A stretch of DNA of 64,000 bases, from NCBI GenBank assembly GCA_051362555.1, contig CM120640.1, forward strand, positions 38,728,788 through 38,792,787, in the 5' to 3' direction. Of the stretch, positions 21,442-63,300 are shown piece after piece; the stretch's first letter is position 1; each line of letters begins with the position of its first letter. The translations under genes were made by a program, and so were the position numbers. The notes under the pieces are model-generated. The model did no database searches, was not told the origin of the DNA, and saw nothing but the letters and a program-made list of their open reading frames with translations. Source of the stretch: Lingula anatina (Eukaryota > Animalia > Brachiopoda).

Positions 21442-22414
21442 ATGGCAGAAGGGAGGCAACCACCAACAAGGACATTTTCATGGAGCTTGGATAACATGCC
21501 TGTCAACATGCCCAGTATAAACGCTCAGGCTAGACTGCCAGGAAATATTGGGAATGTTTTGAGGGAGCTGGTCCCTGGCCTAGAAGGGCGGCCGTCATCA
21601 ACTCCAAACCCGTACCTGCAGGCACAAGCTCAAAGAGCAGCTGATATGTCAAATGAAGCCCCAGCTTCTTCTTTTGTAATAAATATTGGACAAGACGGTC
21701 AGGTTCAGAGAGATGGTATTTTGAATGTTGAACAGTCTGTGCATTCCGCTGAACCACAGTTAATAGGTGGTGGTCAGCTGGAAGGAGGACATTCTCCTGA
21801 ACCCAATAATACTGCTGCTGAAGACGGTGGTCAGGAGGGTCAGCATGGCCATACACATGATACTGACAACAGAATGGACTGGAGACAGGGAAAGAAATGG
21901 CTTGAAAGAAGTCTGATTTTCATTTTGTTGATGCTGTTGAAAGTGACATATAATCATCGCCTGGGTAAGCATTGGCACTGACGGTGCCTATGAATCTATA
22001 GACCAGGGTTTTAGGTATAATTTTTCAATATATAACAATATACAATATATAAACAGAGTCATATAGCTGTGGATGATGTTTTAAATGATCTATGATAACT
22101 GAAAAAAAGCGGAATGAAATTATGATCATCATTATGATCGAATTTGTTTTATTCCCACTAGAAAGAAATTTTGTAGAGAATCTGTCATTTCATATCAGAA
22201 ACATTAAGGAAATTGTAGAATTAAGTGCTTTTATGTAGAATTGTAAAGTACATTGTTTAATTGCACATGCAATATATATTAAGCCCTATATATGATTATT
22301 TAATAAATCTATCATTAATATCTTTACAGGGTTGCTTGTTTTTGTTGGGTTGTTTGGGACATATTACCATGCAAATACAACTGTTAAAAAGCATATTGCA
22401 CAACAAAGGGTAAG

Positions 22415-22462
<48 letters not shown>

Positions 22463-24312
22463 CTTTTCATTAATGAGTCAAAAGAACCATTCTTGGAGGT
22501 TGATCAATTTTTTTTTTTTTTTCTGAAGTACTGTTCATTTGCCTGAAAAAAAAATACACAATGGAAATATATTTGAACTTATTTCAGGATCACCATAATT
22601 CTGCCCGGTCACTGCTGTTGTTGAGTTGGATAGTGATTTTCTTATGTGGAAATATTGCTCTTGTCTACTATGTATTTGAAGATCAGAAGCTTTGGTTAGC
22701 GTAAGTACTTTCCATAAATACTTCAAAATACTAAATTAATTCTTCTTACAACTTTTCATAAATTACATTAAATTACATAAATTATCATTAAAAAGTTAGA
22801 AGTACACACATTAGTTTTTGTCCTAAAATGTTTTTATAATACAATTACTTTTTTCTAAAAATGACATTATTTTTGAAAATTTTCAGTCTAATCTTTAACT
22901 TACCTAAAGTTGGCCGAATAGACTTCTGGACATTACTATGGGTTGTTGCCATCACAGACTACATTGTCAAATTCGCTTCTATCACTTTAAAGGCTCTTAT
23001 AGCCATGCTGCCTAGAACCTTTATACCTTATAAAAGAAGGGTGAGTTATGATCTTATTTCAAAGCAAAGCAGTTCATTGCCTTGTTATAATCATATTATG
23101 TATATATTATACCTTTTGCTTTCTCAAATTAAAAAAAATTATTTATTTATTTGTTTATTATTATTATTTTATTTTATTTTTTTTTTGTAAAATCTTAGGA
23201 TATAACAGTTATTAAAGGCAGTATTTGGTATAATTTCCATGATGCACTTAAGTAATTTAAGCATGAATTTTTTTCAAGGGCAAATATTATATGTTCATAG
23301 AAGAGGTGTCCCAGTGCTATCGTTGTGTTACTCCTATTGTGCCATGGGTTTATTTCCTCAAAGACACAGAACATGGGGGAGAATGGTTCTCTATGTTCCT
23401 GCTCATTGTATATTTTATTGCAAAAGTAAGTCTTGTGATTGACACTGTATATACTGCAGTATTTACAAAACAACTTTCGTTTTATAGTAAACTTTCATCT
23501 GCAATATAAGGTGTATTATTAGTTTTAAGATAATTTCTAATAGTGTCTTTAATTACTAATATAAATCATTATGCTGTATTTTCTCAACGATGATCATTTA
23601 AGGTAAATCTTGTTGTTTTATTCAGGGCATATTGAAAAGCTAAACATTAAGCTGTATGTTTATCTTTATCATTTTTGATTGTAGGCCAACCTCGTGTGGC
23701 AGAAGTCAAAAGATTTATATAAAGCCTGGAAAAAAGTCTGTACAGATGTGGTAAGTTGATGAACAAGTGTATGGTCTTAGGTATTTATTAGAAACCAGTA
23801 TCAGTATATGTGGATGTCTAAACAAGCTATTGCATATATTGGGACTGTGATATGTGTGTGTGTGTGTGTGTGTGTTTGTGTGTGTGTATTTTCTATCTTT
23901 TGAGAAAATGGGCATGTTAAGATATAATTGCTGTAGCACAATGTATATTCTGTCTTTTCCTTGATAATTAATTCAATCAGCTGCTAAGGTTAATTATTGC
24001 AATCCAGTTGGAAGTAGGTGCTTTAGGCTGTGTCACCAACTTCATTCCCATTTTCTGAAGGTGACTTGACAGAATTCAACATATCCTATCCAACCAAATT
24101 AACACTGCTGATGAATTTATGTACTGAACATTTTGTTTTGTTGCAGAATTATGGAATATCCCCAAGTAGAGAGGAGATGTCAGTGGCTGGAGGTGCATGT
24201 CCCATATGTCAAGATGACTACAGGGATCCAGTTATGCTGGCCTGCAAGGTAAGTGTTTCTACTCTGTTTAATGTGTGCTTTTAATTTGGACAGCATGTTT
24301 TTATTTTCCTGT

Positions 24313-24359
<47 letters not shown>

Positions 24360-24712
24360 GTGCATACTTACTGTTGAAGAATATTTAATGTTTAATTGTA
24401 AACTTTGTGCAACTTGTTTATTTTGTACAGTATAGATTTTTGTCAAAGTATTAATCAGTACGCACATGCACACACACAAACAAAATGAAAAATTGAAATA
24501 CATATACACTGACCTACAAAATATTGATAGTTTTCCACCACAGAAATGTATTTAATAATATTTTTCATTTCCTTTTACAGCACATTTTCTGTGAAGACTG
24601 TGTATCAATGTGGTTTGATCGTGAAAGAACATGTCCTATGTGTCGTGCCAACATCGTAGACAACCCTCTCTGGAGGGACGGAACCACTGTTGCTTCCATA
24701 ATATTTTGGTGA
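21442..24712 (+). CDS. RNFT2: RING finger and transmembrane domain-containing E3 ubiquitin ligase (RNFT1/RNFT2 family), 8 coding exons
   Basis: Exons ~21442-21964, 22331-22409, 22588-22700, 22888-23040, 23279-23425, 23685-23750, 24147-24248 and 24581-24712. TM segments include FWTLLWVVAITDYIVKFASITLKAL and GKYYMFIEEVSQCYR. The C3HC4 RING is [39 protein letters not shown], and the C-terminus is WRDGTT. Confidence 0.92.
22417..22459. repeat. (CT)n microsatellite in an RNFT intron
   Basis: Visible directly. Confidence 0.95.
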
Positions 24713-35300: not shown

Positions 35301-38300
35301 AAATTACACTACTGGCAGTCTTCCAAATAGATAAGATTCACAGTTTGGATAGTTATCAACATGTAGTGTACTTGAAGGCTTTCAATAGGCTTATGGCATT
35401 ACTTTATTGAACAGAAAGGCGGTTTTTACCTTTTATTTTTTAACTTTTATTAATTACCTCTTTTTTATCTTAATATATTAAATTAGAAATGTGATTTTTG
35501 TGTTAAAATTGTTTTAACTTATTGCGTTCCAGTGACAGTACAGAATTTCACCTTAAAACCCCCATTATTTCTGTTTAGTGTCTTTAGAAAATGTACAGAT
35601 GACTACATGTTGTAGAGGGGCAGAGTAGCAGGCATTTCCACGTTCTACTCAGAATACTTAATTATCTCTTTAATAGAAATTTACATTCTCCAAATTTTCC
35701 TAGCTGCTATGTCATGCATGGTTCCCAAAGCAAGCTTTGAACACAGATTAGTGATTTGACACATAGTAATAAGCCTGTTGCTATGTCTATCAGCTGACTG
35801 CAATTTACTAGAAACCCTCTGTGAAAGTTGTACTAGTATACTTGTATCTATACCATTTAGTCAAAATGCTTTATGGAATGAAACATTTTGACCCAGTTAC
35901 ATTTATGAAAACCCTAAGGATTCAACACTTTCAAAGATATACTAAGAAGTAGGATACAACTGAACGAAGAAACTTTGAACTGTTTCATGTTTCATAGTCA
36001 TTTTGACGTAAGGTGAGCTCATGGTTTATTGAGAAGACAAACAAAGCCACAAATATTTTGTTCCCAAGTGTTGTAAAATTTAGTACCCATGTCTTTTTGT
36101 TTTCTTATGTTATCTATAACCCGCATCTTCGTGGTTAGTACGGTCATTCCGTCAATATAGAACCCTGAGCATATATTTCCAGATTGTATTGTATTCAGTT
36201 TATGTATTTTAGATATAGATTTTGCGTCTTCACAAAAGTAATGAAGTAAAATGATTATGTTGTAAATGGCGGATAGATTAAGAAAAAGTTGAAAAGTTAG
36301 TTGTATGATTGATCAATATTATACAACTTAAATACCTTGTAAAAAAATTAAATTTATAGGTTTTGAAAAATCGAAATTCAAGATCACGACGAGAGATGGT
36401 TGTGCATTGCGATCGAGACGACACAGAACTTTTGTAAGAAACTGCTAAGCACAATTTGACCGCTTTTTGTAATGAATAATGAAGTGAGATTGAAATTTAG
36501 CAAGGGAAAAGTATAACCATCGAGATCAAAATTCGATCAAAGTAGTATTTCGTTTCCAGCGTTTTTGACTAGGAGAAACTTGAGTTAAAATTTAGAATAA
36601 CTGTCTGCAATATACAAATACAGTACTAGAGTAAGGTACGTAATGCATTTATACGCAACAGGATTTGGGGCGAAATTACTGTAATTAAAAGGAGAAAAAT
36701 GCTTGTTGGGAGCATTCCCAAGTAATACAGGTGCCCGACACCTGTCAAAAAAGCCATCGTTTACAGCACCAGGCACTTACAACTCCAGTTTCTCTCTGCA
36801 CCTGGAAACACCGTTTTTTTTTACACGGCAGCCGAGTATTGTTATTCATGGACCGCTGTATGCGCTTCATAGTAATATATGGGAGACCTCTGATACTATT
36901 TCTTGTTTGTTATCTGTTAACTTTGAAGCCTTAGATGTTGTAAATGATAATATATTACCTTAACTTCATTTTTAAAGAAGTAACGAGTGAACAGGAAAGA
37001 ACGCGCCGAACTTCAGCTTGTGATATTTCAAAAAGCACACGGTCTAAGTCAGTGAGATTTATTATTATATTCTTTTTGTCTTCGATGCAAATAATCTTTT
37101 AATTTAGAAGCATTTGTAATATTTGTCTCTGCTACACAGCTGTTGTAAAAGCTACTGAGTCAGTTTTTTTTAATGTTTTTAGAGGCAACCCCAAGTCGGT
37201 ATTAATTTTTGTAATTTTGTTAAAATGTGACGAATGATTTTTTCGGAAATTTAAGTTTAAAGTATGTTGCGTTTTTTTTCTCCGCCTGCTATATTCTTTA
37301 ACATAATTATTCACATGTAGAGATAATCGATTGAAAAAAGACCATCTTTTTCTGATTCTGATGTAAAATTATCGAAATACTAAAACTAGATATTTCGTTG
37401 CGTTATATTTATTTTGAAGAAGTAAAATATTTATACTTTGGAGAAATGATTTTTTTGTGTGTGTTGCTAGACTTCGGCGAAAAGTTACAGGATACAAAAT
37501 GTACAGTGCTCTCTCAAATCGCATGCGTAATAAACCAAACCCGCTCGATTTTCGTAATCTATGTGGCATCGTTGTTTTATTAAATAAGTTTATGTGGCAA
37601 TTTAGTAAGATGTAAAGGAATGCATTTTAAAGTGCAATAAAAAGTTTGAAATTGATTCGCTAACTGGACAAGACATTAAAAACGGCAACATCTTTTGCTT
37701 AAAGAAAATAGAAAAATAATAGGCATTGAAATCTCCTCGAAATGCTAAAATTATGTATGTATTCTCAACACCCCAAAAAGTATTTCGTCGACAAATATTG
37801 AATCTATTTAAATAAGATATAAATTAAAGCATAATAAACTGATTGTGAAATAAAAAATTGATATAGAATGTTCACTCAATCTGAACATCTGACATAAATG
37901 ACTTATATAACTGCCTTTATAAAATAGTGTTATTCCGTATTTTTCGTCCATTTATCACGCCCATATTTCTAACATCCTAACATCTGAAAACAAAAACACC
38001 AAGCTTAATGCTGTGTTCACTGATGCGAAGAAATTTTGTTACATTGCCATATGGAGCATAAAATAATCAATTAATTTTTCCCTATATCTTCTCTCTTTTG
38101 TTGACTCTTTAAGTGGGAATTTTATCGATAGATAAAGTTTGCAGGTTTGTGTTTCTTTTCACCAAACCCGTACAGTTATCTACACAATAATTTTGAGCTT
38201 ATAGATTTTTGTCAATTATACAGGCAGAATGATATAATATAGGTAAGTTTTTGTTTGTGAACATATTTCACCAAAGAAGAAAAATAAGACAAAAACGATG

Positions 38301-39922
38301 AGTAAGAATATAGTTTTTTATCGTAAATGAGTACGCCGTAGACGTCATCGCAGCAATGAGAAAAAAAAGATACAGAAGTAATTACGGAATTATCGACCGC
38401 TAGCTCTCTGGTATTAGTCACTGTAAAATGAATCATCGGTGTAAGTGCTCAGGACACTTCAGGTCAGGCAGATCAACTCTGGCACACGGACACGGAAACT
38501 AGGAATAGAACGCAATTATCACTCACTTCGAGCTTTTCGCTTTTCAAGTACCGCCAGTATGCTCCGATCTAGTTCAATTATGCCACAGACACAGTTTTCA
38601 ATACTCTCGTCTTTGTCGTACTGAATAATTAATATTTCACCAATTCCGCATTGCTGCAATTTTCGATGATGAAAAAAAAATTGCTGCTGTCCTGAAATTG
38701 ATTGCCGGAATTAAACTTCCAGGTAATCGCTTTTCTGAAAGTCTTTGCTGTACCTGGGGGCTCTCTCTACCTGTGTCCCTGCTGTCATTTAGAGCCTCTT
38801 AGCAGCAATAACGGAGCGCTAATCAGGCAGAACTTGTTCTCCAGGAACTGTTTTTTTCCCCATGTCAACTCGTAACATTGTGTGCGTTGCTAGGAGTTTG
38901 ATTGAAAGAGCATATACATAGCCCGAAGCGTCTTGTGGAAGAAATAATGTTGTGCAGCCGATTGCCTTGATTTTTTTGCATTAGGTTTTATGTGCGTTGT
39001 TCAAGTGGGTCGATATAATTTTCACACCTCATGGCTACGTTTTGATTAGCCCGGGTAATTACACAGCACGGTCTTGTACAATGTGAAATAAGGTTAGCTC
39101 AAGTCAGTTTTGAGGAAGTGCAGACGGATGTGAATAAAATTCCCCTGTTGCTTTCATTTATTGTTTCTGCAATCATTTACATTTAAATGTGCACTTTAGA
39201 GTGATTCTGCTGTTATTACACTGTTTGCAATTGTTTAGTTATTCGTTAGTATTCAAATTATGTTATTTGCCTTACTGTTCGCATAAGATTTTACTGTTCG
39301 TATAAGGTTACCAGGTATCTTAAATAATGTTTTCACAGTTAAGAACATAAAACCTTCTCTTATTACCAATTTGTGTGACAACGGTTGTTGTTGAACAAAT
39401 GACATTTAAGAATTGAATTTTGAAAAATATTATATTTTTGTTATGAGATACCCCTTTCCTACTCAATTTTTTTCCTATCAGAAGTGAAATACGAAACAAA
39501 TATTTCTAAGAAAGTTCGAGGTTGGAGACAAAGGCGTGCTGAAGCTAACATTTTTGTATTTGTTGAAATATTGGTAGTTCTTTTCTTTGGGACATTTTTG
39601 CATAACTCATTTCTATGTAATATCTTATTTCTTAAGCAATTTCATCAATATTGATTTATTGCTGAATGCTCAATCTGTTACTGATATTTACTTCTCTGTG
39701 TGTGACTTTATGTATAATGTGCTGTTTTGTCAAAAATTTTTGAAGGAGAAATATAATTCAGGAAATAAAAAAATATCATTTTCTCTTTTTCGTCGAAAGT
39801 TTTCTCTTAATGCATTATAGACTGAGATTTGTTATTGTCGATACCTTCAACTTACTATTTCAATGAAATAAAAGATGAATAGAAAATCTGGTTTGGCTTG
39901 TTAAATCGCAGTAATCTCCTTA

Positions 39923-40150
39923 AGCCTAGATTACGGGCGCCGTGCGATGAAATTGTCCGTACGATTTTTTTTAATGTAAGGAGCTACGGACTACGCCGAG
40001 TATGTCTACATTACATGGCCTTAAATCCGTACGGTTCCATGCGATTTCGCACGGCCGCCGTCTACCTCCGCTCAGACGCCGTACGAAAAGGGTATTACGG
40101 GCAGTATACGTTGGTCGTACGGGCATCGCATTTCAAATGTAATCTAGGCT
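39923..40150. mobile_element. PIF/Harbinger (Tourist-like) MITE, 228 bp, CpG-rich
   Basis: TIRs agcctagattac / gtaatctaggct plus subterminal gcgatg..ccgtacga / tcgtacgg..catcgc. TTA target-site duplication at 39920-39922 and 40151-40153. Confidence 0.85.
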
Positions 40151-41979
40151 TTACCTAATTGTTCAATTATGGGAGATTAGAATAACCTTGATTATTATGA
40201 AAAAAATTTAAAAGAACAATATTTAGATATGTATCAGAAGGGTTTTCTTCGTGGTCAATTAAATTGTCAAATTTGATTGGTATTTGTTTACGGGATCGAG
40301 CAAGTGAACCGAGTTACAGTCACAAATCTGGGAGGAGAAAAGAGACCGTCAAATCATATAAATTATAAAATATTGGCTTCATGAAAAACATTCAACTTTA
40401 AACTATGGGTTAGAAAAGTTAACCGAACCCTCTTGTTTTTCATTATCAACTGCTATTAATACAAAGGTGACTCTAATTTTCGAATGAAGGTAACAAAATC
40501 AGAATACCAGGCCTATGATCATAGAAAATTGTGTATTGGCACGGCGAATGAAACTCAAATATCGCTGTCACCTTATCACCAGGGTTTATCAGTTCACATA
40601 GGTAACCGTGCTCTCTTCACTCAACCTTTGACGCGCGAAACGAAGAAACAGATAACAAATATCTCATATGATGATGTGTACATGCGACGTTGGAAAATTA
40701 TGTGATGTGATCTTTCAAAAGAGCATTTAGGTATTTCCTGTACTTGTCTGACTCGTTTTACAACCCGTGTGCTTTCACAACCACTCTTGAATATGCGTCA
40801 AATTTCATTATCAATTTCGGTAGGTTTTTGCGTATCGCCAGATGTGTTATGATATAAGTGACATAAGAGGGAAAATATAAACATGATGATGATTCTCTTA
40901 AAACGAAAGGTTGTGTTTATAAGAACCCGCAAACCTCACTCCGTTGTTAGCTAAAGATTTCCCCTTTGCCCGTTTTTAACGCAAATTTTGTATTTTATTT
41001 TGCATTTTTTTCACGGGTTTACATATATTATCTGATGATCGTTACCCGATTTTCATGAAATTTTTGCAATTTTATTCATTAATACCATTAGGCCTATCTA
41101 TAGGCGTGTCTTCGCAAAATCACCCATATCATCACATAAGGGCCTATCTGTGAGTCATAAATGGTGGTTAACATTGTGGAGGTTTCAAACTCCAAAAAAG
41201 GCAACTGATACACTTGAAGTGGATCGTGTCATCCCCTTATTATACCTGTTGGGTAATTTTAGATCCTGCACATTTTTGGCCTTGAACCAAAATTGATAAT
41301 AATGAGCGATCCCACAAAATCGCATTAGGAGAAACCTAGCATTTTTGTTAATCAGAGGACACGCAAAGCTCCGTCATTTATGTGACTTTTTTCTTGTCAT
41401 TCTATATCGGGATCAAGGGAGAGAAATTGAGTAGTATCGGATACACATATCCCGAGCACAGTTGACAGATCGTTAAAACAGTGAAGTTATGCCAAGCGCA
41501 TTCGACACGCCCAGGCACGCGCGAAACGTTACCTACTCGTCATGGACATGCCACATTGTTAACCTTTTCGAACAGTATTAGTCTTGATATAAACCAAGTT
41601 GTTACATTCTGGCTATTTACGACACCCTTATCACGTTTCATTTTCTGATAATTCCTGCTTTAGTTATTTGACAATGTAACTTTGTTAACTGCTGAATGTG
41701 ACAATAGTTTAATCAATTACGACATTTTGTTGTTGGGCGTGGTCTTTCTAGTTCTCCTTGAACTGCTCTTATCAATCTACGCATCAAGCCACGAATCCAC
41801 CCGAACTATTTCAAACATACCGCTCTGAAACGAATTTCTCTTGAACTTTGTTAATCGACAGAAAAAAGAGGATATCGACTTTAGGCGTTAGGCGCTGAAA
41901 TGGAAACTATTCATGTTTCATTTTCATAAGCAGTATAACTTACAAATTCAACATAATTCAAGACAATGTACAACACTTG

Positions 41980-42848
41980 CAAGCATATTAAACAAAAGTT
42001 ACTTTAATAATATATTTAATTTCTTTTACAGTGAAAATAAATATTGCACCAATTTTCAGTTTCGTAAAAAATGAGATCGCGTGAATCTATAAACAATTTT
42101 CATTTTTCTGATAACAGTTTAACATAAAACGAATCATAATTCTGACAAGAAATTATCTTATACTTTGTACAACGAATAAATGCTACGACATGAAAAGTGA
42201 TGCCATAGACTAGACTGTATAGCTATTTACATGCCCATGTGGGTTCGTTAAGTTGCGAAAGCGACTTTACAAAACAAAACACAGGTAAACCAAGTTCGAC
42301 CTAGTTCCGCCTGCACTGGCTTCTAAAGTAAATATTACACAATAAATGAACTTTGGGCTGCACCAAACAAAAGTTTACGTATAAAATTCAGTTCTTATAT
42401 ACTGTCTTCATCCAGTGAGACCAAACGAATAATGAATAGCAATATATATCATGCTATTCGAGATCATTGTGAAAATACTGTCAAGTTCAACAAGGACTAT
42501 TTTGACAGTCTTGCGGCCCTGGGAAATGAACGCACCTCCTCGATAGAAAGTTTATCAAAACGAGCCTCTTGACAAAATGGGCTGTTTGCCAAACGACAAC
42601 ACTATTATTCCAACAGGTGAATTGCGAATTGGTTTTAATGTCGTGACCGGACTGTCAGATCCTTTGACTTGGAGAGACAGCGTAGCACTAATGTCTTTTT
42701 TTCACCACACCACTTGCAATACGTTTTTTTCCCTCGGGATTTTATTGCAGCACTGATTGTCAATTGTCATGTTAGATTAGTTGTAGAAGTGTCCTGTTGA
42801 CAGTGTGCCAACTCGCAGCCTGACCCCATGTCCCCAATTAGAGTTGAC
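41980..42848 (-). other. Putative non-coding exon 2 (3' UTR) of the BH3-only gene
   Basis: Strong acceptor tctatttttgtatttgtag|G at 42849/42848 pairs with the donor at 43701 (853-nt intron). ATTAAA signals at 42015-42020 and 42003-42008 are followed by U/GU-rich sequence. The 3' end is approximate. Confidence 0.5.
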
Positions 42849-43722
42849 CTACAAATACAAAAATAGACGCCATGGTAAAATCTACATGAAACATATTTGA
42901 TTGAGCATTTTCATCTCGGTGCTGGTATTGACATTGAAGAAAACCTGCTCTGTCATGTTTTCTGAAAGCTAGACAAAAAGTCAAGGTCGCCGTTTTCTAC
43001 CATTTATAATCATCAACGTAACAAGTTTCTAACAAAGCGGGGGGTAACGTCAAGACCTTCGTCATTACTTTCCACAAATAAATCCGCGAAACTGAGAGTT
43101 GATTTAATGCAAACATGTGTCATATCATTTACGCTGTCGCGTGGCCCTGGTTCACGGCTCGACGACGTGGTAATGTTTACAAACATTGGCACGTGGCCAG
43201 TGGAAGGGAGATGTGTTATTTTTAGACGAGCGCGCTACGTTTTCTGGTTCATAGATTTGCTGTGAATACCCTTTGTTTAAGGGCTGTGTTTGTCAATTTC
43301 CTATTTTTCTGGAACTCGTTCTGGTGCCATCCAAGTTAGTGCCAGTTCGTCGGGTGTATTGTCATTAAAGAATAGTTCTGTGTCGAGACCACAATGGATT
43401 TATGAAGTACATTGAGTAATAAGTATTGTCATAGTAAAATAGCCCTACACGGACTATGGCAGGATGACAAACCGTTTACCAAGGATGGCCTTATGTTGCT
43501 ATGACAAGGAAACAGACTTACACGCGGGACTTTTTTCATTGTTTTTGGAGCATATTTGTTAGCCTCCCATATATACCTGTTTATTTGTAAGCAGGCCCTG
43601 TCAATTTGCGACAGAACGCCCTCTTTAATATTGACACTTTTTAAATTTTATTAGATACATTTATATTATAAGTAAAAATAACAATATGACATAATTCTTA
43701 CCTGAATTCCAATGGGATTACA

Positions 43723-44004
43723 TCATCTGAACATAAATTGAATATACACCCGTAATATGTGCTTGAACAACACAGTCTTGTCCTCGAGGTAAAAAATACA
43801 ACGCCAGTCAGCGAAGAAATTTGTCCATCGAATTTTATGAGACAGTGTCATCTCTTTATCCAGGTCATCTCCTATTGTACGCAGTCTCTCTGCCACCTCG
43901 CGTAAGTGTTCTTGGAAAGCAGGTGACAATTTATTCTCTCGTTGCCCGTCACTGTCGGAGGTGCTCATAGAGCCTTCTCGGCTGTCTGAATTTTCCCTTG
44001 ACAT
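43723..44004 (-). CDS. 93-aa BH3-only Bcl-2-family protein (candidate HRK/DP5 positional ortholog)
   Basis: ATG 44004 is in good context (caacATG). A disordered S/D/E-rich N-terminus precedes a canonical BH3 LREVAERLRTIGDDLD (L-x3-G-D-x-L at ~43858-43896) and a hydrophobic/basic tail VLFKHILRVYIQFMFR. No BH1/BH2 motif. TATA and CCAAT lie upstream, and a consensus donor CAG|gtaag follows 21 nt after the stop. Confidence 0.8.
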   Translation of the reverse strand: MSRENSDSREGSMSTSDSDGQRENKLSPAFQEHLREVAERLRTIGDDLDKEMTLSHKIRWTNFFADWRCIFYLEDKTVLFKHILRVYIQFMFR

Positions 44005-44119
44005 GTTGAGAAAGAGATATTGAATCAACTATGGAGGTGTATCTAATGGCCTGTGTATCTTCAGTCTATCATAGTCCTATCTCGCTGTCATATTCTTTCA
44101 CCAGTGTGTATAATCTTAT

Positions 44120-44330
44120 TTCTAACCAGAAACATTTGGATCACCTTTGTTTATAGCGCGAGTCCAGACCTGCGAATCTCATTGGTCGAAATAGCGCATG
44201 ACTGCGCGAATACGACTGGCAAAAGTCCAGGGACTCCACGTGCTTTTGTTTGCATTTTGTTAGGGGGTTTTTGCGAGGTCGAGTGAGAATGGGTTCCGCC
44301 ACGAACATTTTCTGGGGGTATTTCCATTTT
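44120..44330 (-). promoter_or_regulatory. TATA-type core and proximal promoter of the BH3-only gene
   Basis: TATAAA at 44150-44155, CCAAT at 44181-44185, E-box CACGTG at 44237-44242 and Rel-like GGGTATTTCC at ~44316-44325, in CpG-rich sequence. Confidence 0.6.
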
Positions 44331-47300
44331 CTTAATAATTTTATTAGCGTTATGCAATCCGTTTTTTTTTTCAAAAGTAAATTTAGCCGTCTCTCGCATC
44401 CCATATAGGTATTGTCAGGTGAAAATGATATCCTTCGTTGTTCTTATCACAAGGTCACACAGCACGATGCACGCACAAGGTAAAGCGAATCATTGTGCCC
44501 CGTTAAGATATATTAAGGTTAACTTTTGATTAGGACAACCACTTATGTATGTTTTGGCGTGCTTTCGTTTCGGATCAAGTAGATTGAAATTGTTTTTAAA
44601 AAATGGGCGGGGTGTGGGGTGGGTATTTTCATATTATGTAGGTTTCCTAACTAGTTTGAATTGGTACACCATTTGTTCAACATCGAAATACTTAGTAAAA
44701 ATCTAAGATTTCCAGGAAAAATAAGATAAAGTTAAGGAATAACTCTGTGGCTCGTTAAATGAAAAGAAATGCAAGTATATTGGGTTAAAATGTTACATAT
44801 CAATTCGTTGTTGTGTTGAGCAAACATACTGTAGTTTTATGTTGAGGACTCTTTTAACGTTGTGTAATACAGGTTTTATCGAACGTTACTTTTATTGAAG
44901 ATATCTAACAGTTCATGGTAAGTTTTCAAAATCTTACATCGCTAAAACTATCCAGCATGCCAAAATGGTTTAGATCAATTCGTTATTGTATTAAGCTAGA
45001 CATATTCTTATTAGATGACTCTAGTTTTTATTGCGAATTGATTAGTATTGAGCGGGTAGCCATGGTCGATATGGCGGGAGTCAGCGTGCAGGGATTACAA
45101 CGTCTTACGGTCGCCCTGACCAAACATAACGACTGTTGCTATTTCCCCGTGGGGCACAAAACGCCTGAAATTTGGACTGCGATACCGAACAGAGTTGAGC
45201 GAGTAATCGAATTTTATCTATTTCATAATTGCTTTTATCTAGTATGAATTTTCTGGAGCCATAGAGAGACTTATTTCTTTGAAATTGAGATATCTGTTCT
45301 TTGTTTCAGTGGTTAAATGTCTACAAAAATCATTTTCGAACTTGGTGCAAATTTGTTTGTCTTCATGTTCTTCGTCTTGTTAGCGTCAGTCTCAGCAGAA
45401 ACATGAAAAACATCCAGCCAGACAAACACAGATCTAGAGGAATTCACTGATACGAATACTTTATTTCCATTTATTAATTAATCTATATATATTTATTCAT
45501 TTATTTATTTGTCATTGTCAAATTAAATGGAATTCATGTACTCTAATGAAGTGCAGTAAGTGCGTAAGTACAAAGATTTAGACAGAAAGAAAGAAAGAAA
45601 AGAAAAGAAAGGGGGAAATGTTGATCGTTCTGTTCCATTTGCACTCGTAATAATATCAAAGCATACGGGTCGTGAACCCTTTATTATTCAAGTCAGGTCG
45701 CCAGTATTGACGCTTCATCAGATGTTGAACTGGCTGAGGCTGTTGTTATTTTCTCGGAAATGTTGAATAGTGCTTGTCTCCCTGCAGCATACATCACACG
45801 AATATAGACGTAAGGACAAAACAAAACATTTTTGTTTTATTCTACCACAATTGAGATAAAGCATCAAGGACCAAATAAAGAAAAAGATTCGAAAATGTTA
45901 CCGAACTCGCTTTGAGCGTGTTAGCGTGCTTGCCGTTTTATTATTAGTGACGTACGTTCGGGAAATGGATTTAAAAGGCGTTTTCGCTTATCGAAATTTA
46001 CCATGTATTTTAAAAAGTGCGAATTAGGATTCTGCGTTTTTGTTTTAAGCCTACATGAAAGGAAGCCTTATTATACTGGGATCAAGTGCCTTTTGGGATA
46101 TTGGGAATTAATGATAAAATGTGGCAAGTTAAGCAAAAATAAAGTGATGTGCGATATAAATGCTCTCATGTAAACCCTATACCAAACTATAAGAGATGAT
46201 GTTATGTAGACGCAATAAGGGATTAATACATAAGCATCCATATGCAAATTAAGATAAAAGGACGTAGAGATAAGCTTATGCACACAAGTGGTGTTAAAAT
46301 TCAAAAAAGCCTCCATATGTTAATGTGTTGGGTGCATGCAAACACGGATTGCGTGTAAATGTAGACGAAATATCAATCTCTAGAAACATTACAATACATC
46401 CCAGAATACTGCGAACGATCGTGGCTTTCCACGTGGGCCAATGCATACATGTCTTGTAAACGTGTCTGAGAGTAAATGCGAGAAATATGAGAATAGAATT
46501 TAAAAGCCAGACACTTTGGCAGAGTTTTTATTCCGTAGCAGTCGAGTAGTTACAGATTGTTTATCATTACTTATTTTATTTATTTTTTTTGTTTGTTTGT
46601 TTTTTGATATTCAGACAGCAGAGTTAAAAAACGACTTTGTCCTATTTATACCAGTAAAACGCTTTACCACACTCTTCGGTCGGGGAAAAAACGTAGGTCT
46701 ACGGGAGTTTTGCTCGGGTGAATCTCAAAATTGTTTGACAAATATTTTTAAGAAATATTTTCTGAAAATGTCCACACGACAAATTTTATGACAATTAGGA
46801 GAAAATAATCGGTCAAACAAAACCATAAAAATGTGAAATAGAACATTTGTTTGATGTGTAGAATTATCAAAAGGAAATCTGCTGTACAAAATGCATGGTT
46901 TTATTTTGGATTTTTTTTTACAATCTTTAGATGCCCATTTTTCTCTTAAAACATCGCTGTCTGAATTTTGACAAATTCGAGATATCTAGCCTTTAGAAAA
47001 AATTCAAATAAAAACTAAATATAATTTTAAAAACAGTTGTTAAGTATGTAAACTTTCACGCCAATCGACACACATAAAAGATCAAGCATAAAGCATGACT
47101 ACTGCAATATCATATGCGCAAAAATATTATCTTTTGAGCAGAAACGTTTGTAATAATGTCAAGACAGCTTTAGATCTATTGAGTAATAATATGTATCATA
47201 AATCAAAGAAAGAAAAAGAAAACTTGTGGAATTCAGAAGAAATGTTCGTTTTCTCTTATTTTAACCGTGTTAATATGTTCATCTATCATACTTGATACGT

Positions 47301-53221: not shown

Positions 53222-56200
53222 CTAATTAGCAAAGATGTCTCCCATGGGAATCCAGATATTCTTGCACTGGATTGCATGGTACAGGAACTCTTCACCTTGA
53301 CCTTGTTCCCGGTCAGCCCAGTTTCTGGACAGCCCATAGTTGACCCAGGTGCGCTTGACATTGACTGCAGACGTGTACTCCACAAACTTCGACCCCTCCG
53401 CAGAGCCAAAATACCACACCGACTGGATGTCTTGGTGCTCAGTGAGGTACTTGGTGAGATGATCGCGGTCTCCGGTGATGATATTAACTACCCCACCTGG
53501 CAGGTCAGATGTATCAAACACCTGAGGATTAGGAAAATAACAGTCATTTTGTTATAAATAAAAAAATGCATTACTCACCACGATCTTACCACAATTACCT
53601 TGGAGAAATGGGGTTAACAGTGTGTGTTAGCATGTATCACAGCATGCCCCAGTGTAAAATTGTCTCCCGCAGCAAGCATGAAACAATAAGGACTGCATGT
53701 GTCATACTGGTCACCACAGAGCATGGTACTTGACACCTAAGTCCAATAATATTCTTATTCACCTGATAAAGGTTACGATGAGGTGACAGAGATATTTGAG
53801 TCTAAAATCACAAAATGCACAGCGGAAACCAGCAAAGATTGACTTAAATACGCAATTTTAAAAACCACACAAGCTTTTCCCTGATTCAGGTTACACGCTG
53901 TATGCTGGATGCCAATCTCACGCCAGCTCACCTGATACAAGTCCAGGGCTGACAGGGGATACTTCTCGCTTGGCAAAATAACAATGCAATTTCCACGGAT
54001 AACTGCTGGAGCAAACAAGGACACAAAACCCAGCAGAGGATACTCATCAGGGCAAGCTATGCCAATGACACCCACTGGTTCATGAATCTTTACTGTGCAA
54101 CCATACAGGGTGGTTTCCTGAAATATATCATAATTTATACATTAGAAAAAAAACAGGGGGGAGGCTAATAACAAAATGCATTACTTCTCATTTGTTCAGT
54201 TTTTTACAATATTTATCAATCAAGTAAAAAGAAAAAAAAACTTATTCTAAACAACTATTCTTTTCTGCAACAATATTTGCTGCCTAAAAAACTGATTCAC
54301 TTCTTAGAACCACATCTTTATGACAATAACCTCATCTCCCTGTGAAACAGTGAAAGAAGGTATTAGACAGAATGCACTACCTGCACAGTGCCTCCATACT
54401 TGTCACAATAGGCGCCCCAGTGGAACAGCCTCTGTATGGCCAGGTCCACCTCCTGCAGCCCCGCCTCCAGTTTCTGACCTGTCATACTGCAGATCCTCTG
54501 TGCCACCTCCTGGCGACGTAGCTCCAAGTTTTCTGCCATGTAGTAGACTATCTGGGCCCGGTTGTGTGCTGCTCGCTTGCCCCATCTATTATATATCAAA
54601 ATCAACCCAATAAAATGTCTTGTGGATTTTTTCCAACTATCTGCTTCTGACATAACCATCAACTGCATTTCTTATGTTAAAAAAAGAAGAATGCATAAAT
54701 ACAAAATAAAACAAGTTTGAAATATGGTACAAGTTTAAAATATGGTTTAACATTACTGAGCTAGCTTAAGCTGGCAAACATACACCCCACTGATTGCATC
54801 AAGACTGAAAAGATAACAACCAATATCAGTCTAAACCCTGATAAATGATCCTGTAAAACAGGGAAAAGTATTTTAGCAAAAATCAAGGTGGCAATACAGG
54901 AGAATGTCTGTTTAAATTGCTTAAAAGGGTGTAACTTTTGAAGCATTGATTCCACAATTAAAAGGCCAATTTACAAAGTCAACCTGTATGTCAGCTTTCC
55001 TGATGTCTCTACATGCCTACAGCCCGTCTCTACTTGCTGGAAAATAACACTCTGAACTGTCAAATTTATTTTAAGACCAAACACTTCACTGCCGGCCAGT
55101 CCAGGAGTTGGTTTAGGAATTAACATTAAATTTAAAATGTCAAAATTATGTGACTTTGCAGAAAATCTCACTGACAGTGCCTGCTCATAAAAATAAATAC
55201 ATTGTCAAACAAGTATAAATTGTCAAACACTAAAAAAATGTCACCAAATACTGAAATATAGAATGCTAATCTGCATGTCAAACTCAAAGATTTTAGTCCT
55301 CACAAACATACTACTGTGAGCTGAAATGATGAACATCTTCCAAATTTAGCACTGCATACAAAGAAACAACTCTAAATGAACAGAGAAACGTACCCTGGTG
55401 CTGCTTTATGTGCCACTTCCACTGCATTCCTGATGTCTTTCCTGTTCCCCTCACCCACATGAGCCAGCACTTTACCATTAGGACCCATTACTGGCCTGGC
55501 ATAGGGAGCATCAGGGCGCTTCTGGGCACCACCATAGTACATCTTATAGGTGCGGTCAATACTGAAAATTAAATTGTTCAGAGCCTGTCAAAAAATATCC
55601 ATCTATGTGCATGTGTTCATGGTAAATACTGCAAGATATCATTAATTTTTTAAATACTGATATTGGAAGAATTTTTTAAATTGAGATTAGATATGTTATC
55701 AGTAGTTCCCATATTTCAACACTATTGATAAAAATTTTTATTTTTTTTGTGTGAAATTTCTGAATAACAAAATGCGAATGAAAAGGCTAATTATAACCTT
55801 GTTATTGATTTCTAGATATCAGCATGAAAAGCTTGATGCCAAAAGGATGTCAACAATTTTTTTCAAATAGGTTCAAACTGAACTGGTCACAAGAGAAAAT
55901 CATTAATATCTTGGTTCTTTGTAATTTAAAGTGATCTAATCATTAAGTGTAAAAACTATCTGACTAGCTCTTACAATTCCTCTTTTAATTTTAAATTTCA
56001 CATTTTGTCTGCATCTTCCTGTCATTAACATAGGTTCTCCAATGTACTCATGTTCGTACGCTTGTTCTCAAATACACGCAAACGAAACCTGGTGCATTTT
56101 ACAGATATAAATAGGGTGGTAATCCATTAACAGATTAAATATCTTTTGTGGTTTTTATCATTGTTACCTTGCAGCACTTTTGTATCTATCAGCATGTAAT

Positions 56201-60300: not shown

Positions 60301-63300
60301 TTCCACATGTATAGGTAAAAGTAAATAATCTTTTTTTAAAGAAGGGGTAAATTCGTAAAGGTTTGTTAATGTTTTTTTTTTTTTTTTTTTTTTTTGAAGT
60401 GTCATTCTATAAAACTTCTGCACATGTTTAGCTGTATATGTGGTTGGAAGTACACAAGGTTAAATGAAATTTGGGAGTAATTTGTCTTATAATCTGTAAT
60501 AAAAATTTAAAGACAATCTTTAGGAAAAGACAAACAGACTGGAAAGTGATCACCAAAATAAGTGGGCAAAACTATAATTTTAAGATCTGTATGATAAAAG
60601 TTTGTGAAGACAAGATCTAAGGCTGAGTCATAATTGGTAGTTGGAGTTGTGACATGTTGTCTAAACATAAGGTCTTGGCACATCATTTTTCTGAGAGCAT
60701 TTGCATTGTTTTCATGGAGCCAGTTGACATTAAAGTCACCTATAATAACACATTTGTCTGTCTTATCAATAGTGTCAAGAATATTTCTCAAAGCCTCAAG
60801 AAGAACCTGCATTTTACCATGAGGAGGTCGGTAAATTGTGATGACAACAAAGTCAGGAAACTGATCTAATCGTGTGACAGTAATCTCAATTCCAGAAAAA
60901 TTGCAATTTTTTGGAAAATTCTCTGCATATCTATGGTGACTGTAGATAGCAGTACCATGCTGTCTATGAAGAGTACTATCATTTCTGTGAAGATATTTAT
61001 CTTTTAGCTGGTATTTTGTATTTAGGTCTTTAATTGCAAATCTGGTCTCTGTGAAAGCACATACATCTGCTTTCCCTACATCAAAATTCTTTCTGATATC
61101 ATCAATGTATTTGTGAAGAGAACAGCAATTCCAATGGATTATTTTGAAGTGGTCATCTGGTTGTTCATATAGAAAAGATATTGATTTAACAAGCTGTGCT
61201 TCTTGCCTTAAACGTTTCATTTCTTGTTTAACTTTGTCAGAAATGCATATTTTACTGGCATTTAATTCCAAAATATGCAATCCTTCTAATTTTTCTACAC
61301 GACTAAGTGCAACATAATGCATGTGCTCATTTTTTCTGCCACTGAGATCTACAACTAATTCTTTCAATGTGTCACCTTGACATCTGTGTATAGTTTTTGC
61401 AGCAGACAACTGCAGTGGGAATTGTTTTCTTACGACTTGATACTGTCCTGTTTTTCCCAGGTGAAATTGTCTTTTAACAGGAAAGATAGGTGTCCATGTT
61501 TTTGAAATGTTGCTGTTATATAATGGTTTGTTCATTCTTCTAACATTTTTGCCAATGTCCTCTGCATCAAATTGTACCCAAATTAATTGTCTGTCTAAAT
61601 CTACCAGTTTCACAACATTTGGTGCACCATTAGTAATGCCATCTTCTGTGTCAACATTTAGGACAACTTCAGTTCTTTCCCCAACTGCAATATGCAGAAT
61701 CCTTCGTAAATTCATGGTTTTTTTATGATCCAATGGAATTTGCTTTCTGATGTTGTTTTCTAAATGTTTTGGTACAGGCCCAGTGATAGTATCAGTGGCT
61801 GCAATTTGAAATTTTTCTCCTTTTGCATTTTGATAACTGGCATGATTGAAATTTTCTACCAGAGAATTTGTTTGGAAAACATGTAGTAATGGTTGTTGGC
61901 TAGTTTTTGATTGATCAAGTTGACGTTCACTTAGAACTTTTATGTCTTTGTCTGTGTGATGTCCTTCTCTAAGCCTATTTAAAATTTCTGCAAACTCTTT
62001 ACTGTCTTTTTGACGCATGATCTCGGTCAGTTCATACATGTGAAAATGTTTCTGCCACAAATTAGTAGCTAATGGATAATAGTCATTGTTTGGATTTTCA
62101 AATATCCAGTTATCAAACACAGGCTTCAGTTGAAATAGGTCACCTATAGCCACAATGCTAACACCTCCAAACAGTCTGTCATTGTTTTTTAGTTCTTTTA
62201 ACCGTTCATTGATGAAACTTAACATTTTACTCCCAACCATTGAAACTTCGTCAATAAAGAGAACTTTAAGTGATCCAAGTTTGTATCTGAAACTGTTTAA
62301 CACATCAGCACTGAGTCTTTTATATTTGAGACTTTGATTTGCAGGAATTTTCAGTAAACTGTGAATTGTGTGGCCACCAATATTATAAGCAGCTTTTCCT
62401 GTAGGAGCAACCAAAGCAACTCTAATTGTCCGGAAGTCTTCACCAGGTAAACTTGACAAGTACTTTAAAATACCTTGATACAGAGCACGAGTGACAAATG
62501 ATTTCCCCACACCAGCACCTCCAGACAGGAATATGTGAAACGGATCAGAATTGGATTTGATTAAATGTAAAACATGATGGAAAAACTCTAACTGTTGTCT
62601 GTTCATGTTTCTAATCATTTTATAGTAACTGATATCAGGTATTTCTTTATTAACAATTTCTTCTTCAGTGCAACTTTTGGCAGATACATGTATACCCAAA
62701 TCTTCTGCCAAGTCATAGGACAGACCAACAGAAGATTGTACCACATCACTAGGTTCACACTGATCCACTTCATTTTGACACTCAGTATTTGGTGCAACAG
62801 TGGCCCACATATCTTCATCTTCACTATCCATGTTATTTAGATCTTCCATTGCTCTGTGCAATTCATCTTTAGCTGGAGAATACATTCTCTGCTGTTCCCA
62901 TATCTCATTTTCTAAATGTTGACATCTCTGTTCGTAACTTTCAAAATCTTGCAAAATGTCAGATTCTTCATTTCTCCATGGAATATACAACATCAATAGC
63001 TCACGGTAATGCTTTTCAGGATATAAACTCTCACTGAACCAAACACTGCGAATAATTTTTGCTTTTTTTCGTTTAATAATGTCTGTTTCACATGGAATAT
63101 CATGAATATCATCCTCAAAATTTTCAAGGTCATGCTTTTCCAATGGCATACCATCTGTATCTAATAATCTAGAAGATCTTTTCTTGCTTCCGCCAATAAT
63201 GTTCAAATTGTTGTCATAATATGCAGCAAAATCTGCAAGGGAAACATTGTCCAAGGAAGGTAAGCGCCTGCTATAACGTTTCAAAAGATTGCTGGACTCA

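What the first reader, a model, noticed from the sequence alone, without database searches (positions are those of the whole stretch)
42848..43725. HRK-like exon layout: whole ORF in exon 1, with an intron just after the stop codon
Seen: consensus donor CAG|GTAAG 21 nt after the TGA (43702/43701) and a strong acceptor at 42849/42848, giving an 853-nt 3'-UTR intron. Established: mammalian Hrk/Dp5 carries its full ORF in exon 1 with a non-coding exon 2; 3'-UTR introns are uncommon, and junctions within ~50 nt of the stop escape EJC-dependent NMD. Inference: this layout is independent support for HRK orthology.
Basis: partly seen in the sequence, partly recalled or inferred. Interest (0 to 1): 0.7.

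Follow-up and report, generated by a model that had tools for sequence, protein, structure and literature searches.

The report
Brachiopod death-gene with harakiri-type exon layout
A small, unannotated brachiopod gene keeps its whole 93-residue reading frame in exon 1 and splices out an 853-base intron starting 21 bases after the stop codon, as rat Hrk/dp5 does; it likely encodes a BH3-only cell-death trigger and sits beside an RNFT2-like gene, so it may be an ancient counterpart of harakiri.

Summary
The minus strand carries a 93-aa ORF (44004-43726, TGA 43725-43723). A CAG|GTAAGA donor follows 21 nt after the stop and a tttgtag|G acceptor lies at 42849/42848. RNA-seq reads join 43702 to 42848 (9 reads, 4 of 4 runs, GT..AG on the minus strand). 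Exon 2 is therefore entirely 3'UTR.

The protein has a full BH3 motif (VAERLRTIGDDLD). This is the only match in all six frames of the 64-kb window. One 96-aa relative exists (43% identity, E 2.4e-12), and its BH3 and a C-terminal WRCxFYLE block are conserved. Its look-alikes are BH3-only proteins, but no match is significant and none is to HRK.

Rat dp5/Hrk has the same layout (PMC2685101). I also found that the gene lies tail-to-tail, about 17 kb from an RNFT2-like gene. That gene is 98-100% identical to Lingula anatina RNFT2-like, and RNFT2 is listed at the HRK locus in human and goat.

Against orthology: there is no harakiri-family sequence match, no clear tail anchor, no FBXW8 neighbour, and HRK is reported absent from zebrafish and amphibians.

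Verdict: the layout is real, a BH3-only function is likely, and HRK orthology is plausible (about 0.45) but unproven. The layout alone is weak support.

The parts
44237..44242 (-). E box CACGTG upstream of the gene (generic promoter element)
   Evidence: sequence
44181..44185 (-). CCAAT box
44150..44155 (-). TATAAA box, about 25-30 nt upstream of where RNA cover begins
   Evidence: Reads of run X2 reach bin 44123-44239 at depth 0.15, and bins above it have depth 0
43702..44125 (-). Exon 1. It holds the 5'UTR (about 120 nt), the whole ORF, and 21 nt of 3'UTR. The 5' end is approximate.
   Evidence: RNA cover. The exon's 3' end is fixed by the joint
44060..44091 (-). Two mini-uORFs in the putative 5'UTR. 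Their ATGs are at 44091 (4 codons) and 44072 (3 codons).
   Evidence: They lie in the mRNA only if the start is upstream of 44091, which the X2 cover suggests
43723..44004 (-). 93-codon ORF plus TGA. It is the only sense ORF of 30 aa or more in the 1273-nt spliced mRNA model.
   Evidence: The SNP 43816 G>A in 4 of 4 X1 reads falls on the third base of codon 63 (TTC>TTT) and is synonymous by my own reading
43852..43896 (-). BH3 motif, residues 37-51: VAERLRTIGDDLDKE
   Evidence: (1 hit in six frames of 64 kb against 0.03 expected)
43768..43845 (-). Second conserved block, residues 54-79: LS....WT.F...WRC.FYLE.D..VL. It is aromatic/hydrophobic but also charged.
   Evidence: alignment A1; hydropathy
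42849..43701 (-). 853-nt GT-AG intron lying wholly in the 3'UTR
   Evidence: 9 junction reads, 4 of 4 runs. No Rfam family. No copy elsewhere in the window
42017..42848 (-). Exon 2, non-coding 3'UTR. The 3' end is approximate.
   Evidence: Oligo-dT run X8 covers 42017-42835 and nothing in 41900-42016; also X7 and X9
42015..42020 (-). ATTAAA, a candidate polyadenylation signal
   Evidence: sequence only; the cleavage site was not seen
21442..24709 (+). Neighbouring RNFT2-like gene. It has 8 coding exons and a RING finger in the last two. It converges on the BH3 gene, with about 17 kb between the 3' ends.
   Evidence: the last exon is 100% identical to 'RING finger and transmembrane domain-containing protein 2-like [Lingula anatina]'; tblastn of P0002

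Best explanation
This is a transcribed two-exon gene whose 93-residue ORF lies wholly in exon 1 and whose only detected intron (853 nt, GT-AG) is spliced out starting 21 nt after the stop codon; the protein is likely a BH3-only death ligand, and the gene is possibly the brachiopod positional counterpart (ortholog) of vertebrate HRK/dp5.

Shown:
- the ORF, the splice sites and the spliced junction;
- minus-strand transcription;
- a non-coding exon 2;
- one conserved relative;
- the RNFT2-like neighbour.

Inferred:
- Transcription would start about 25-30 nt after the TATA box.
- The single splice would load an exon-junction complex about 20-24 nt upstream of the junction, which is on the stop codon itself. 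The terminating ribosome would clear it there, so the mRNA would gain the benefits of splicing without becoming an NMD target. This follows the mammalian 50-55 nt rule.
- The protein would be disordered at its acidic, Ser-rich N-terminus.
- It would form an amphipathic BH3 helix (V37, L41, I44, G45-D46, L48). That helix is predicted to dock in the groove of Lingula pro-survival Bcl-2-like proteins, or on BAX/BAK, and so promote mitochondrial permeabilisation.
- The conserved WRCxFYLE block would target or regulate the protein.
For: Layout:
- Sequence.
- 9 junction reads in 4 of 4 runs, GT..AG on the minus strand.
- In the stranded runs X1-X3, gene reads all have the first mate on +, which implies minus-strand RNA.
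- 3'-biased oligo-dT reads cover exon 2 down to about 42017.
- The 93-aa ORF is the only ORF of 30 aa or more in the spliced model.

BH3-only reading:
- L[KARQ]x[IVAL]GD[DESG][LIMFV] occurs once in six frames of 64 kb, against 0.03 per shuffle. The extended form is expected 0.005 times (pattern recalled).
- One relative, P0001 (96 aa, E 2.4e-12, 43% identity), was the only hit among 1.84 billion representatives.
- The BH3 (10 of 15 residues identical) and a C-terminal block are its best conserved parts.
- Both proteins weakly hit BID's BH3 region in Pfam (E 0.052 and 0.0092, below cutoff).
- A profile of the two finds BAX, PXT1 and BID BH3 segments in the PDB (E 0.06-1.3, not significant).
- Language-model look-alikes of both proteins are PXT1, BIM, BMF, NOXA and BIK clusters (0.80-0.88).
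- AF2 gives a disordered N-terminus and a helix over residues 28-57 (pLDDT 57).
- Lingula has BAX, BAK, BOK, MCL1 and BCL-2-like genes, so partners exist (PMC11463336, passages).

HRK link:
- Rat dp5 has two exons, with the ORF plus a small part of the 3'UTR in exon 1 (PMC2685101).
- The size (93 aa) and the mid-protein position of the BH3 resemble HRK (HRK's length of about 91 aa is recalled).
- The convergent neighbour is RNFT2-like.
- No Pfam-detectable ORF lies between the two genes (73 ORFs scanned).
- 'RNFT2, HRK, FBXW8, TESC' are listed at one human locus (PMC6445783 table). HRK and RNFT2 share one goat interval (PMC12686773).
Against: - No sequence statistic for BH3 kinship reaches significance. 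All Pfam and PDB hits are below threshold.
- There is no harakiri-family Pfam hit at E<=10 for either protein. No HRK chain is among the 29 PDB hits, and no harakiri cluster is among the Atlas look-alikes.
- The C-terminus is not a clean transmembrane anchor. The best 19-residue Kyte-Doolittle mean is 0.69, with several charged residues.
- No F-box/WD40 (FBXW8-like) ORF was found on the other side (69 ORFs from 44.3-60.5 kb). An ALDH-like gene lies there instead.
- No CRE/ATF site lies within 1.1 kb upstream, unlike rat dp5.
- HRK is reported as not found in zebrafish, Xenopus and axolotl and 'appears absent' in fish.
- BH3-only proteins are regarded as polyphyletic (PMC11463336).
- The order and orientation of human RNFT2 and HRK are recalled, not shown by any search.
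- RNA depth is very low. The second lay listed no joint.
- Binding was not tested.
Confidence: 0.45

Rival explanations
1. A lineage-restricted BH3-only gene, of brachiopods and near relatives, that arose independently of HRK. It could have arisen de novo or from a BAX-like BH3 exon. Under this reading, the HRK-like layout and the RNFT2-like neighbour are coincidence.
For: - Only one relative was found in 1.84 billion representatives and in 5.8 billion clusters.
- There is no HRK-specific similarity.
- The best PDB alignments are to the BAX BH3 and run past it (LKRIGDELDSNMELQRMI against LKTIGDDLDKEYTLSRKI in the profile).
- BH3-only proteins are called polyphyletic.
- A BH3 in the penultimate exon is generic to the class.
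- HRK is reported absent from fish and amphibians.
- There is no FBXW8-like gene on the other side.
Against: A chance BH3 ORF within about 20 kb of one given gene is rare: about 0.03 core matches are expected per 64 kb of six-frame sequence. On top of that, the orientation, size, BH3 position and 3'UTR-intron layout all match HRK. The BAX matches are not significant (E 0.06 or more), and no BH1/BH2 or Bcl-2 Pfam hit exists.
Confidence: 0.33
2. The gene is real and spliced, but the product is not a Bcl-2-family ligand. It would be either a small conserved protein of another function whose helix merely resembles a BH3, or a mainly non-coding transcript.
For: - All BH3 similarity scores are below significance.
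- Atlas scores of 0.8-0.9 are also reached by a share of shuffled proteins, according to the tool's own text.
- The C-terminal block is as conserved as the BH3 and has no known counterpart.
- The AF2 model has low confidence.
- Expression is low in 8 runs.
Against: - The motif matches every hydrophobic and Gly-Asp position, and it is conserved in the relative.
- Conservation at protein level (E 2.4e-12) argues for a coding gene.
- The start codon has a good context (A at -3).
- The one CDS polymorphism seen is synonymous (my reading).
Confidence: 0.17
3. The ORF in exon 1 is only one isoform. A rarer transcript would use a donor inside the ORF to reach further coding exons, giving a multi-domain Bcl-2 protein.
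For: RNA depth is too low to exclude minor isoforms. Weak in-ORF GT sites exist at 43749 and 43896.
Against: - Only one joint was listed across 38000-47000.
- Pfam scans of ORFs downstream and upstream found no Bcl-2 family exon: 73 ORFs and 69 ORFs.
- Read-through across the junction meets a second stop after 30 codons and encodes no hydrophobic tail.
Confidence: 0.05

Closest known systems
Mammalian Hrk/dp5 gene (rat dp5 as described in PMC2685101)
   Same: Both have two exons, with the whole ORF plus a short piece of 3'UTR in exon 1 and a non-coding exon 2. Both have a TATA box and an E box in the promoter. Both encode a small protein with one central BH3. Both have an RNFT2-type gene at the locus.
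   Different: - The intron is 853 nt here and 18.9 kb in rat.
- There is no ATF site within 1.1 kb upstream.
- There is no match to a harakiri family profile.
- The C-terminus is not a clean tail anchor.
- There is no FBXW8-like neighbour.
- The stop-to-donor distance in mammals was not available for comparison.
BH3 segments of BAX, BID and PXT1 (PDB 3pk1_B, 2voi_B, 8gsv_B) and vertebrate BIM/BMF/NOXA/BIK clusters
   Same: The core L-x-x-[IV]-G-D-[DE]-L is shared, with a hydrophobic residue four positions before the Leu. The similarity to BAX runs about 10 residues past the core. These are also the nearest language-model neighbours.
   Different: All scores are below significance. There is no BH1/BH2 and no dynein-light-chain motif. 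The flanks are unrelated.
Invertebrate BH3-only candidates in print: Hydra and other cnidarians, schistosomes, echinoderms, and a Lingula candidate in Fig. 5 of PMC8998228
   Same: They are short, predicted-disordered proteins recognised mainly by the BH3 motif.
   Different: Cnidarian BH3-only genes are said to lack introns. The printed Lingula candidate was found by BLAST with Bim, Bad or Bmf seeds in NCBI proteins. This ORF's exact sequence is not in the 15-billion-protein collection, and no protein at least 50% like it is represented. The two are therefore probably different genes. I could not see the figure, and the held supplement names only a file.
3'UTR-intron genes whose last junction lies less than 50-55 nt after the stop (NMD-exempt class; established for mammals, recalled)
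   Same: The junction is 21 nt after the stop codon, and it is used.
   Different: It is unknown whether brachiopod NMD reads exon-junction complexes at all. Nothing on this was tested here.

Membership tests
BH3-only proteins (functional class) | BH3 motif: four spaced hydrophobic residues with an invariant Leu and a Gly-Asp | tested here: met
   V37, L41, I44, G45-D46 and L48. The motif is conserved in P0001. It is the only match in six frames of the window, against 0.03 expected (pattern recalled)
BH3-only proteins (functional class) | No BH1, BH2 or BH4 motif and no Bcl-2 fold | tested here: met
   No Bcl-2 family Pfam hit at E<=10. The protein is 93 aa. AF2 gives three helices only, at low confidence
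BH3-only proteins (functional class) | [quoted passage not shown] | tested here: met
   The BH3 lies in exon 1 of 2
BH3-only proteins (functional class) | Significant sequence relation to a known BH3-only family | tested here: not met
   Only BID, at E 0.052 and 0.0092, below the 25-bit cutoff. PDB hits have E 0.06 or more
BH3-only proteins (functional class) | Binds the groove of Bcl-2-family proteins and promotes apoptosis | not testable with these tools
HRK / harakiri / DP5 | Match to the harakiri family profile (Pfam PF15196; accession recalled and also named in earlier notes) | tested here: not met
   No such hit at E<=10 for either protein. HMMER filters may drop very weak matches
HRK / harakiri / DP5 | C-terminal hydrophobic tail anchor | tested here: not met
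   The best 19-residue hydropathy mean is 0.69. Charged residues (D, E, K, H, R) lie within the last 30 residues. Exon 2 encodes no tail in any frame near the junction (and my reading)
HRK / harakiri / DP5 | Two exons, with the ORF and a small part of the 3'UTR in exon 1 and the rest of the 3'UTR in exon 2 (PMC2685101) | tested here: met
HRK / harakiri / DP5 | Genomic neighbourhood RNFT2 - HRK - FBXW8 (PMC6445783, PMC12686773; order and strands recalled) | tested here: inconclusive
   The RNFT2-like neighbour is present and convergent, with no Pfam-detectable ORF between. No FBXW8-like ORF was found on the other side
HRK / harakiri / DP5 | Promoter ATF site that mediates JNK/c-Jun induction (PMC2685101) | tested here: not met
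   No TGACGTCA with up to 1 mismatch in 44100-45200. A TATA box and an E box are present but generic
NMD-exempt 3'UTR-intron transcripts | Last exon junction less than about 50-55 nt downstream of the stop | tested here: met
   21 nt
NMD-exempt 3'UTR-intron transcripts | mRNA level insensitive to NMD inhibition | not testable with these tools
   Needs UPF1 depletion or reporter experiments

The most novel reading that the evidence does not exclude
Harakiri is not an invention of higher vertebrates. A tiny BH3-only gene with its ORF in exon 1 and a 3'UTR intron, lying tail-to-tail with RNFT2, already existed in the last common ancestor of brachiopods and vertebrates. It has escaped notice because only the BH3 helix, the exon layout and the neighbour survive 550 million or more years of divergence.
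Probability: 0.4. Interest if true: 0.8.

Novelty: new member of a known kind. Interest (0 to 1): 0.6.

Why it matters
BH3-only proteins are the upstream switches of mitochondrial apoptosis. Their origin is unsettled. Reviews call them polyphyletic, find few convincing ones in lophotrochozoans, and describe HRK as restricted to higher vertebrates.

This gene is spliced and conserved, and it appears to be unannotated: the exact protein is absent from the 15-billion-protein collection. It shares HRK's unusual gene layout and its RNFT2 neighbour. That makes the age of HRK directly testable by looking 3' of RNFT2 in other genomes. It also suggests that position-guided searches could find fast-evolving micro-proteins that sequence searches miss. 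Finally, it gives a candidate death ligand for the Bcl-2 network of a brachiopod.

Tried and rejected
- Run index: no RNA holder was listed for the stretch. Raw-read runs with the same species label were laid instead.
- Second read lay: no joint, start or end reached the listing threshold (4, 6, 17 and 0 reads laid), so the transcript ends stay approximate.
- Word-indexed protein searches found nothing beyond P0001, with the single protein or with the two-sequence profile.
- No whole genome is held for this window, so paralogues and Lingula Bcl-2 genes could not be fetched.
- Earlier findings by place and by sequence: none.
- Intron as host of a known RNA: no Rfam family at E<=1 inside the gene. 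The only hit is a sub-threshold Chlorobi-RRM at 41615-41688, outside it.
- Intron as a repeat: no second copy in the window.
- Relic tail anchor: read-through of the TGA across the junction gives CNPIGIQ|VNSNWG... and then a stop, with no hydrophobic segment.
- Rat-type ATF site: not found.
- FBXW8-like gene on the far side: not found.
- Papers not held: Sanz 2001, Coultas 2007 and Nakamura 2008. The layout of Hrk was finally taken from PMC2685101.
- Fold search was not run, because the model's pLDDT (57) is too low to give meaningful matches.
- The BAX-derived origin was considered. The 'NFFADWRC' against BAX 'NFNWGR' resemblance is from memory only, no call supports it, and it is kept only within rival 1.
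Full report
**1. The observation**

On the minus strand an ATG at 44004 opens a 93-codon frame that ends in TGA at 43725-43723. After 21 further bases comes CAG|GTAAGA, so exon 1 ends at 43702. CAGGTAAG occurs twice on the minus strand and never on the plus strand of the 64 kb. This donor scores highest of all GT sites between 44200 and 42000.

The run index listed no RNA holder, but it offered nine raw-read RNA runs with the same species label. I laid four of them (X1, X4, X7, X9; three studies) on 38000-47000. They gave one joint only: 42846->43700, 'skips 853, CT..AC (cut +2)'. This is 42848/43702 with GT..AG on the minus strand, seen in 3, 1, 2 and 3 reads, so in 4 of 4 runs.

The intron interior (43117-43417) had depth 0 in three runs and 0.2 in the fourth. 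In the stranded runs the gene's reads all have the first mate on +, the usual sign of a minus-strand RNA.

A second lay (X2, X3, X8, X5 on 41900-45400) placed only 4, 6, 17 and 0 reads and listed no joint. It does show three things:
- 5' cover reaches about 44140 (X2).
- Oligo-dT cover of exon 2 runs from 42835 down to bin 42017-42133 and not beyond (X8).
- A few opposite-strand reads fall inside the intron (X3, 42953-43186).

Depth is too low to rule out rare isoforms.

**2. The gene**

A CCAAT box (44181-44185), a TATAAA (44150-44155) and an E box (44237-44242) precede the region where reads begin. A model built from exon 1 (about 44125-43702) and exon 2 (42848 to about 42000) is 1273 nt long. 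Its only sense ORF of 30 aa or more is the 93-aa one. Two mini-uORFs, of 4 and 3 codons, lie in the putative 5'UTR.

Reading through the TGA and across the junction gives 30 more codons with no hydrophobic stretch, so exon 2 hides no lost tail. The intron holds no Rfam family and has no second copy in the window. A candidate ATTAAA sits at 42020-42015.

**3. The protein**

VAERLRTIGDDLD matches the BH3 pattern at every hydrophobic position and at Gly-Asp. The core pattern occurs once in the six-frame translation of the whole window, against 0.03 per shuffled window. The extended pattern is expected 0.005 times (the patterns are recalled).

An exhaustive phmmer run over 1.84 billion representatives found one relative, P0001 (96 aa, E 2.4e-12, 43% identity). 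It comes from an unnamed Logan assembly. Word-indexed searches added nothing. In the pairwise alignment the best conserved parts are the BH3 (VAE.L.TIGD..D.E) and a second block, LS....WT.F...WRC.FYLE.D..VL.

No similarity to a known family is significant:
- Pfam gives only BID's BH3 region, below threshold, for both proteins (E 0.052 and 0.0092, cutoff 25 bits).
- A profile of the two proteins finds 29 PDB sequences at E<=10. Most are BAX BH3 segments (best E 0.061), with PXT1 and BID also present. No HRK chain is among them.
- Language-model neighbours of both proteins are unnamed small chordate clusters (0.88-0.90), then PXT1, BIM, BMF, NOXA and BIK clusters (0.80-0.88). No harakiri cluster appears. 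By the tool's own statement, scores in this range are leads only.

AlphaFold2 on the two-row alignment gives a disordered N-terminus and helices at 28-57, 61-71 and 76-91, with mean pLDDT 57.

The C-terminus is aromatic and hydrophobic but also charged. The best 19-residue hydropathy mean is 0.69, so it is not a clean tail anchor.

I conclude that a BH3-only function is likely (about 0.8) but rests on motif, conservation and context. It does not rest on a significant family match or on any binding test. Lingula has BAX, BAK, BOK, MCL1 and BCL-2-like genes that could serve as partners (PMC11463336, passages).

**4. The surroundings**

Looking for neighbours, I found RING-finger exons on the plus strand. 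The last exon (24581-24709) is 100% identical to 'RING finger and transmembrane domain-containing protein 2-like [Lingula anatina]' (P0002). All 98 proteins returned at E<=0.001 carry RING-finger Pfam domains. The named ones are mostly called RNFT1- or RNFT2-like, and many are unnamed. tblastn of P0002 places its coding sequence in eight pieces at 21442-24709. Six pieces are 90-100% identical. The two lower values (74-75%) come from HSPs that overlap their neighbours in query range. The window is therefore Lingula anatina DNA or something very close to it.

The RNFT2-like gene (+) and the BH3 gene (-) converge, with about 17 kb between their 3' ends. In that space, 73 ORFs of 55 aa or more gave no Pfam family, apart from one sub-threshold Got1 hit.

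On the far side, 69 ORFs from 44.3-60.5 kb gave nothing and no F-box or WD40 hit. Three further ORFs in that stretch had already been scanned and were left out; these are the ALDH-like exons. The window also holds a Core-2/I-branching enzyme ORF, a TBC-domain exon and a Helitron-like ORF.

**5. Comparison with HRK**

For rat, PMC2685101 (passages) states that dp5 has two exons separated by an 18.9-kb intron.

A GWAS table lists 'RNFT2, HRK, FBXW8, TESC' at one human chr12 locus (PMC6445783). A goat interval holds MED13L, HRK, SPRING1, FBXW8 and RNFT2 (PMC12686773). That human RNFT2 and HRK are immediate, convergent neighbours is my recollection only.

Points for orthology:
- the same layout;
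- a similar size and BH3 position;
- the same neighbour, and (as recalled) the same relative orientation.

Points against orthology:
- There is no harakiri-profile match.
- There is no clean tail anchor.
- There is no ATF site within 1.1 kb upstream.
- There is no FBXW8-like neighbour.
- HRK is reported as not found in zebrafish, Xenopus and axolotl and 'restricted to higher vertebrates' (PMC6124574), and as absent in fish (PMC8998228).
- BH3-only proteins are regarded as polyphyletic.
- A BH3 in the penultimate exon is the rule for the class, apart from Bid (PMC7022251), so an intron soon after the BH3 exon is not specific to HRK. Only the stop lying before that intron is.

Two earlier AI notes of this scan claim PF15196-positive HRK genes in a shark and a ray. 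If right, they would already push HRK back to the first jawed vertebrates. I did not test them.

**6. Mechanism (inferred)**

The junction lies 21 nt after the stop. An exon-junction complex, normally placed 20-24 nt upstream of a junction, would therefore sit on the stop codon and be removed by the terminating ribosome. By the mammalian 50-55 nt rule, the transcript would not be an NMD target. Whether brachiopod NMD uses such complexes is unknown.

[quoted passage not shown] Nothing comparable could be tested here.

**7. Verdict**

The layout is HRK-like but is weak evidence by itself. The RNFT2-like neighbour is the stronger argument.
- My odds are about 0.45 for a true HRK counterpart, 0.33 for an independent BH3-only gene, 0.17 for a product that is not a BH3 ligand, and 0.05 for a hidden multi-exon coding isoform.

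A Lingula 'potential BH3-only' protein appears in Fig. 5 of PMC8998228. I could not see the figure, and the held supplement only names a file. It was found among NCBI proteins, whereas this ORF is not in the protein collection. It is therefore probably a different gene.

Noticed in passing
window 21442-24709 (+): RNFT2-like gene with 8 coding pieces. Six are 90-100% identical to the Lingula anatina NCBI protein P0002. This identifies the organism and gives the synteny argument.
   Followed up: yes
window 44591-45223: Minus-strand RNA reads in stranded runs X1 and X3, about 0.5-1 kb upstream of the gene's TATA box. No joint links them to exon 1. They could be an upstream transcript, an alternative first exon or a repeat.
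   Followed up: no
window 42953-43186: Reads of opposite orientation (first mate on -) in stranded run X3, inside the 3'UTR intron. They may come from an antisense or independent transcript.
   Followed up: no
window 40066-40152: A short stretch with many RNA reads whose two sides run on into unrelated sequence (loose ends at 40116 and 40148-40153 in X1, X7 and X9). It looks like an expressed dispersed repeat.
   Followed up: no
window 42571-42729: A cluster of linked differences in exon 2 in runs X7 and X9 (42571, 42579, 42635, 42704, 42711), plus a loose end at 42729 that resembles the reference with changes in a T run. It looks like a divergent haplotype of the 3'UTR.
   Followed up: partly
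window 60507-63998 (-): Open frame of 1163 aa running off the window end, with PIF1-like helicase and endonuclease/exonuclease/phosphatase domains. It looks like a Helitron-type transposon.
   Followed up: partly
window 1-1314 (-), 13502-13846 (-), 53225-54671 (-): A Core-2/I-branching glycosyltransferase ORF, a TBC/RabGAP exon and three aldehyde-dehydrogenase exons. None is a known neighbour of HRK in mammals (as recalled).
   Followed up: partly
window 44060-44091 (-): Two mini-uORFs (4 and 3 codons) in the putative 5'UTR of the BH3 gene. They may give translational control.
   Followed up: no
window 43816: G>A in 4 of 4 reads of X1 but not in X7 or X9. By my reading it is a synonymous third-position change in codon 63 of the ORF.
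   Followed up: partly
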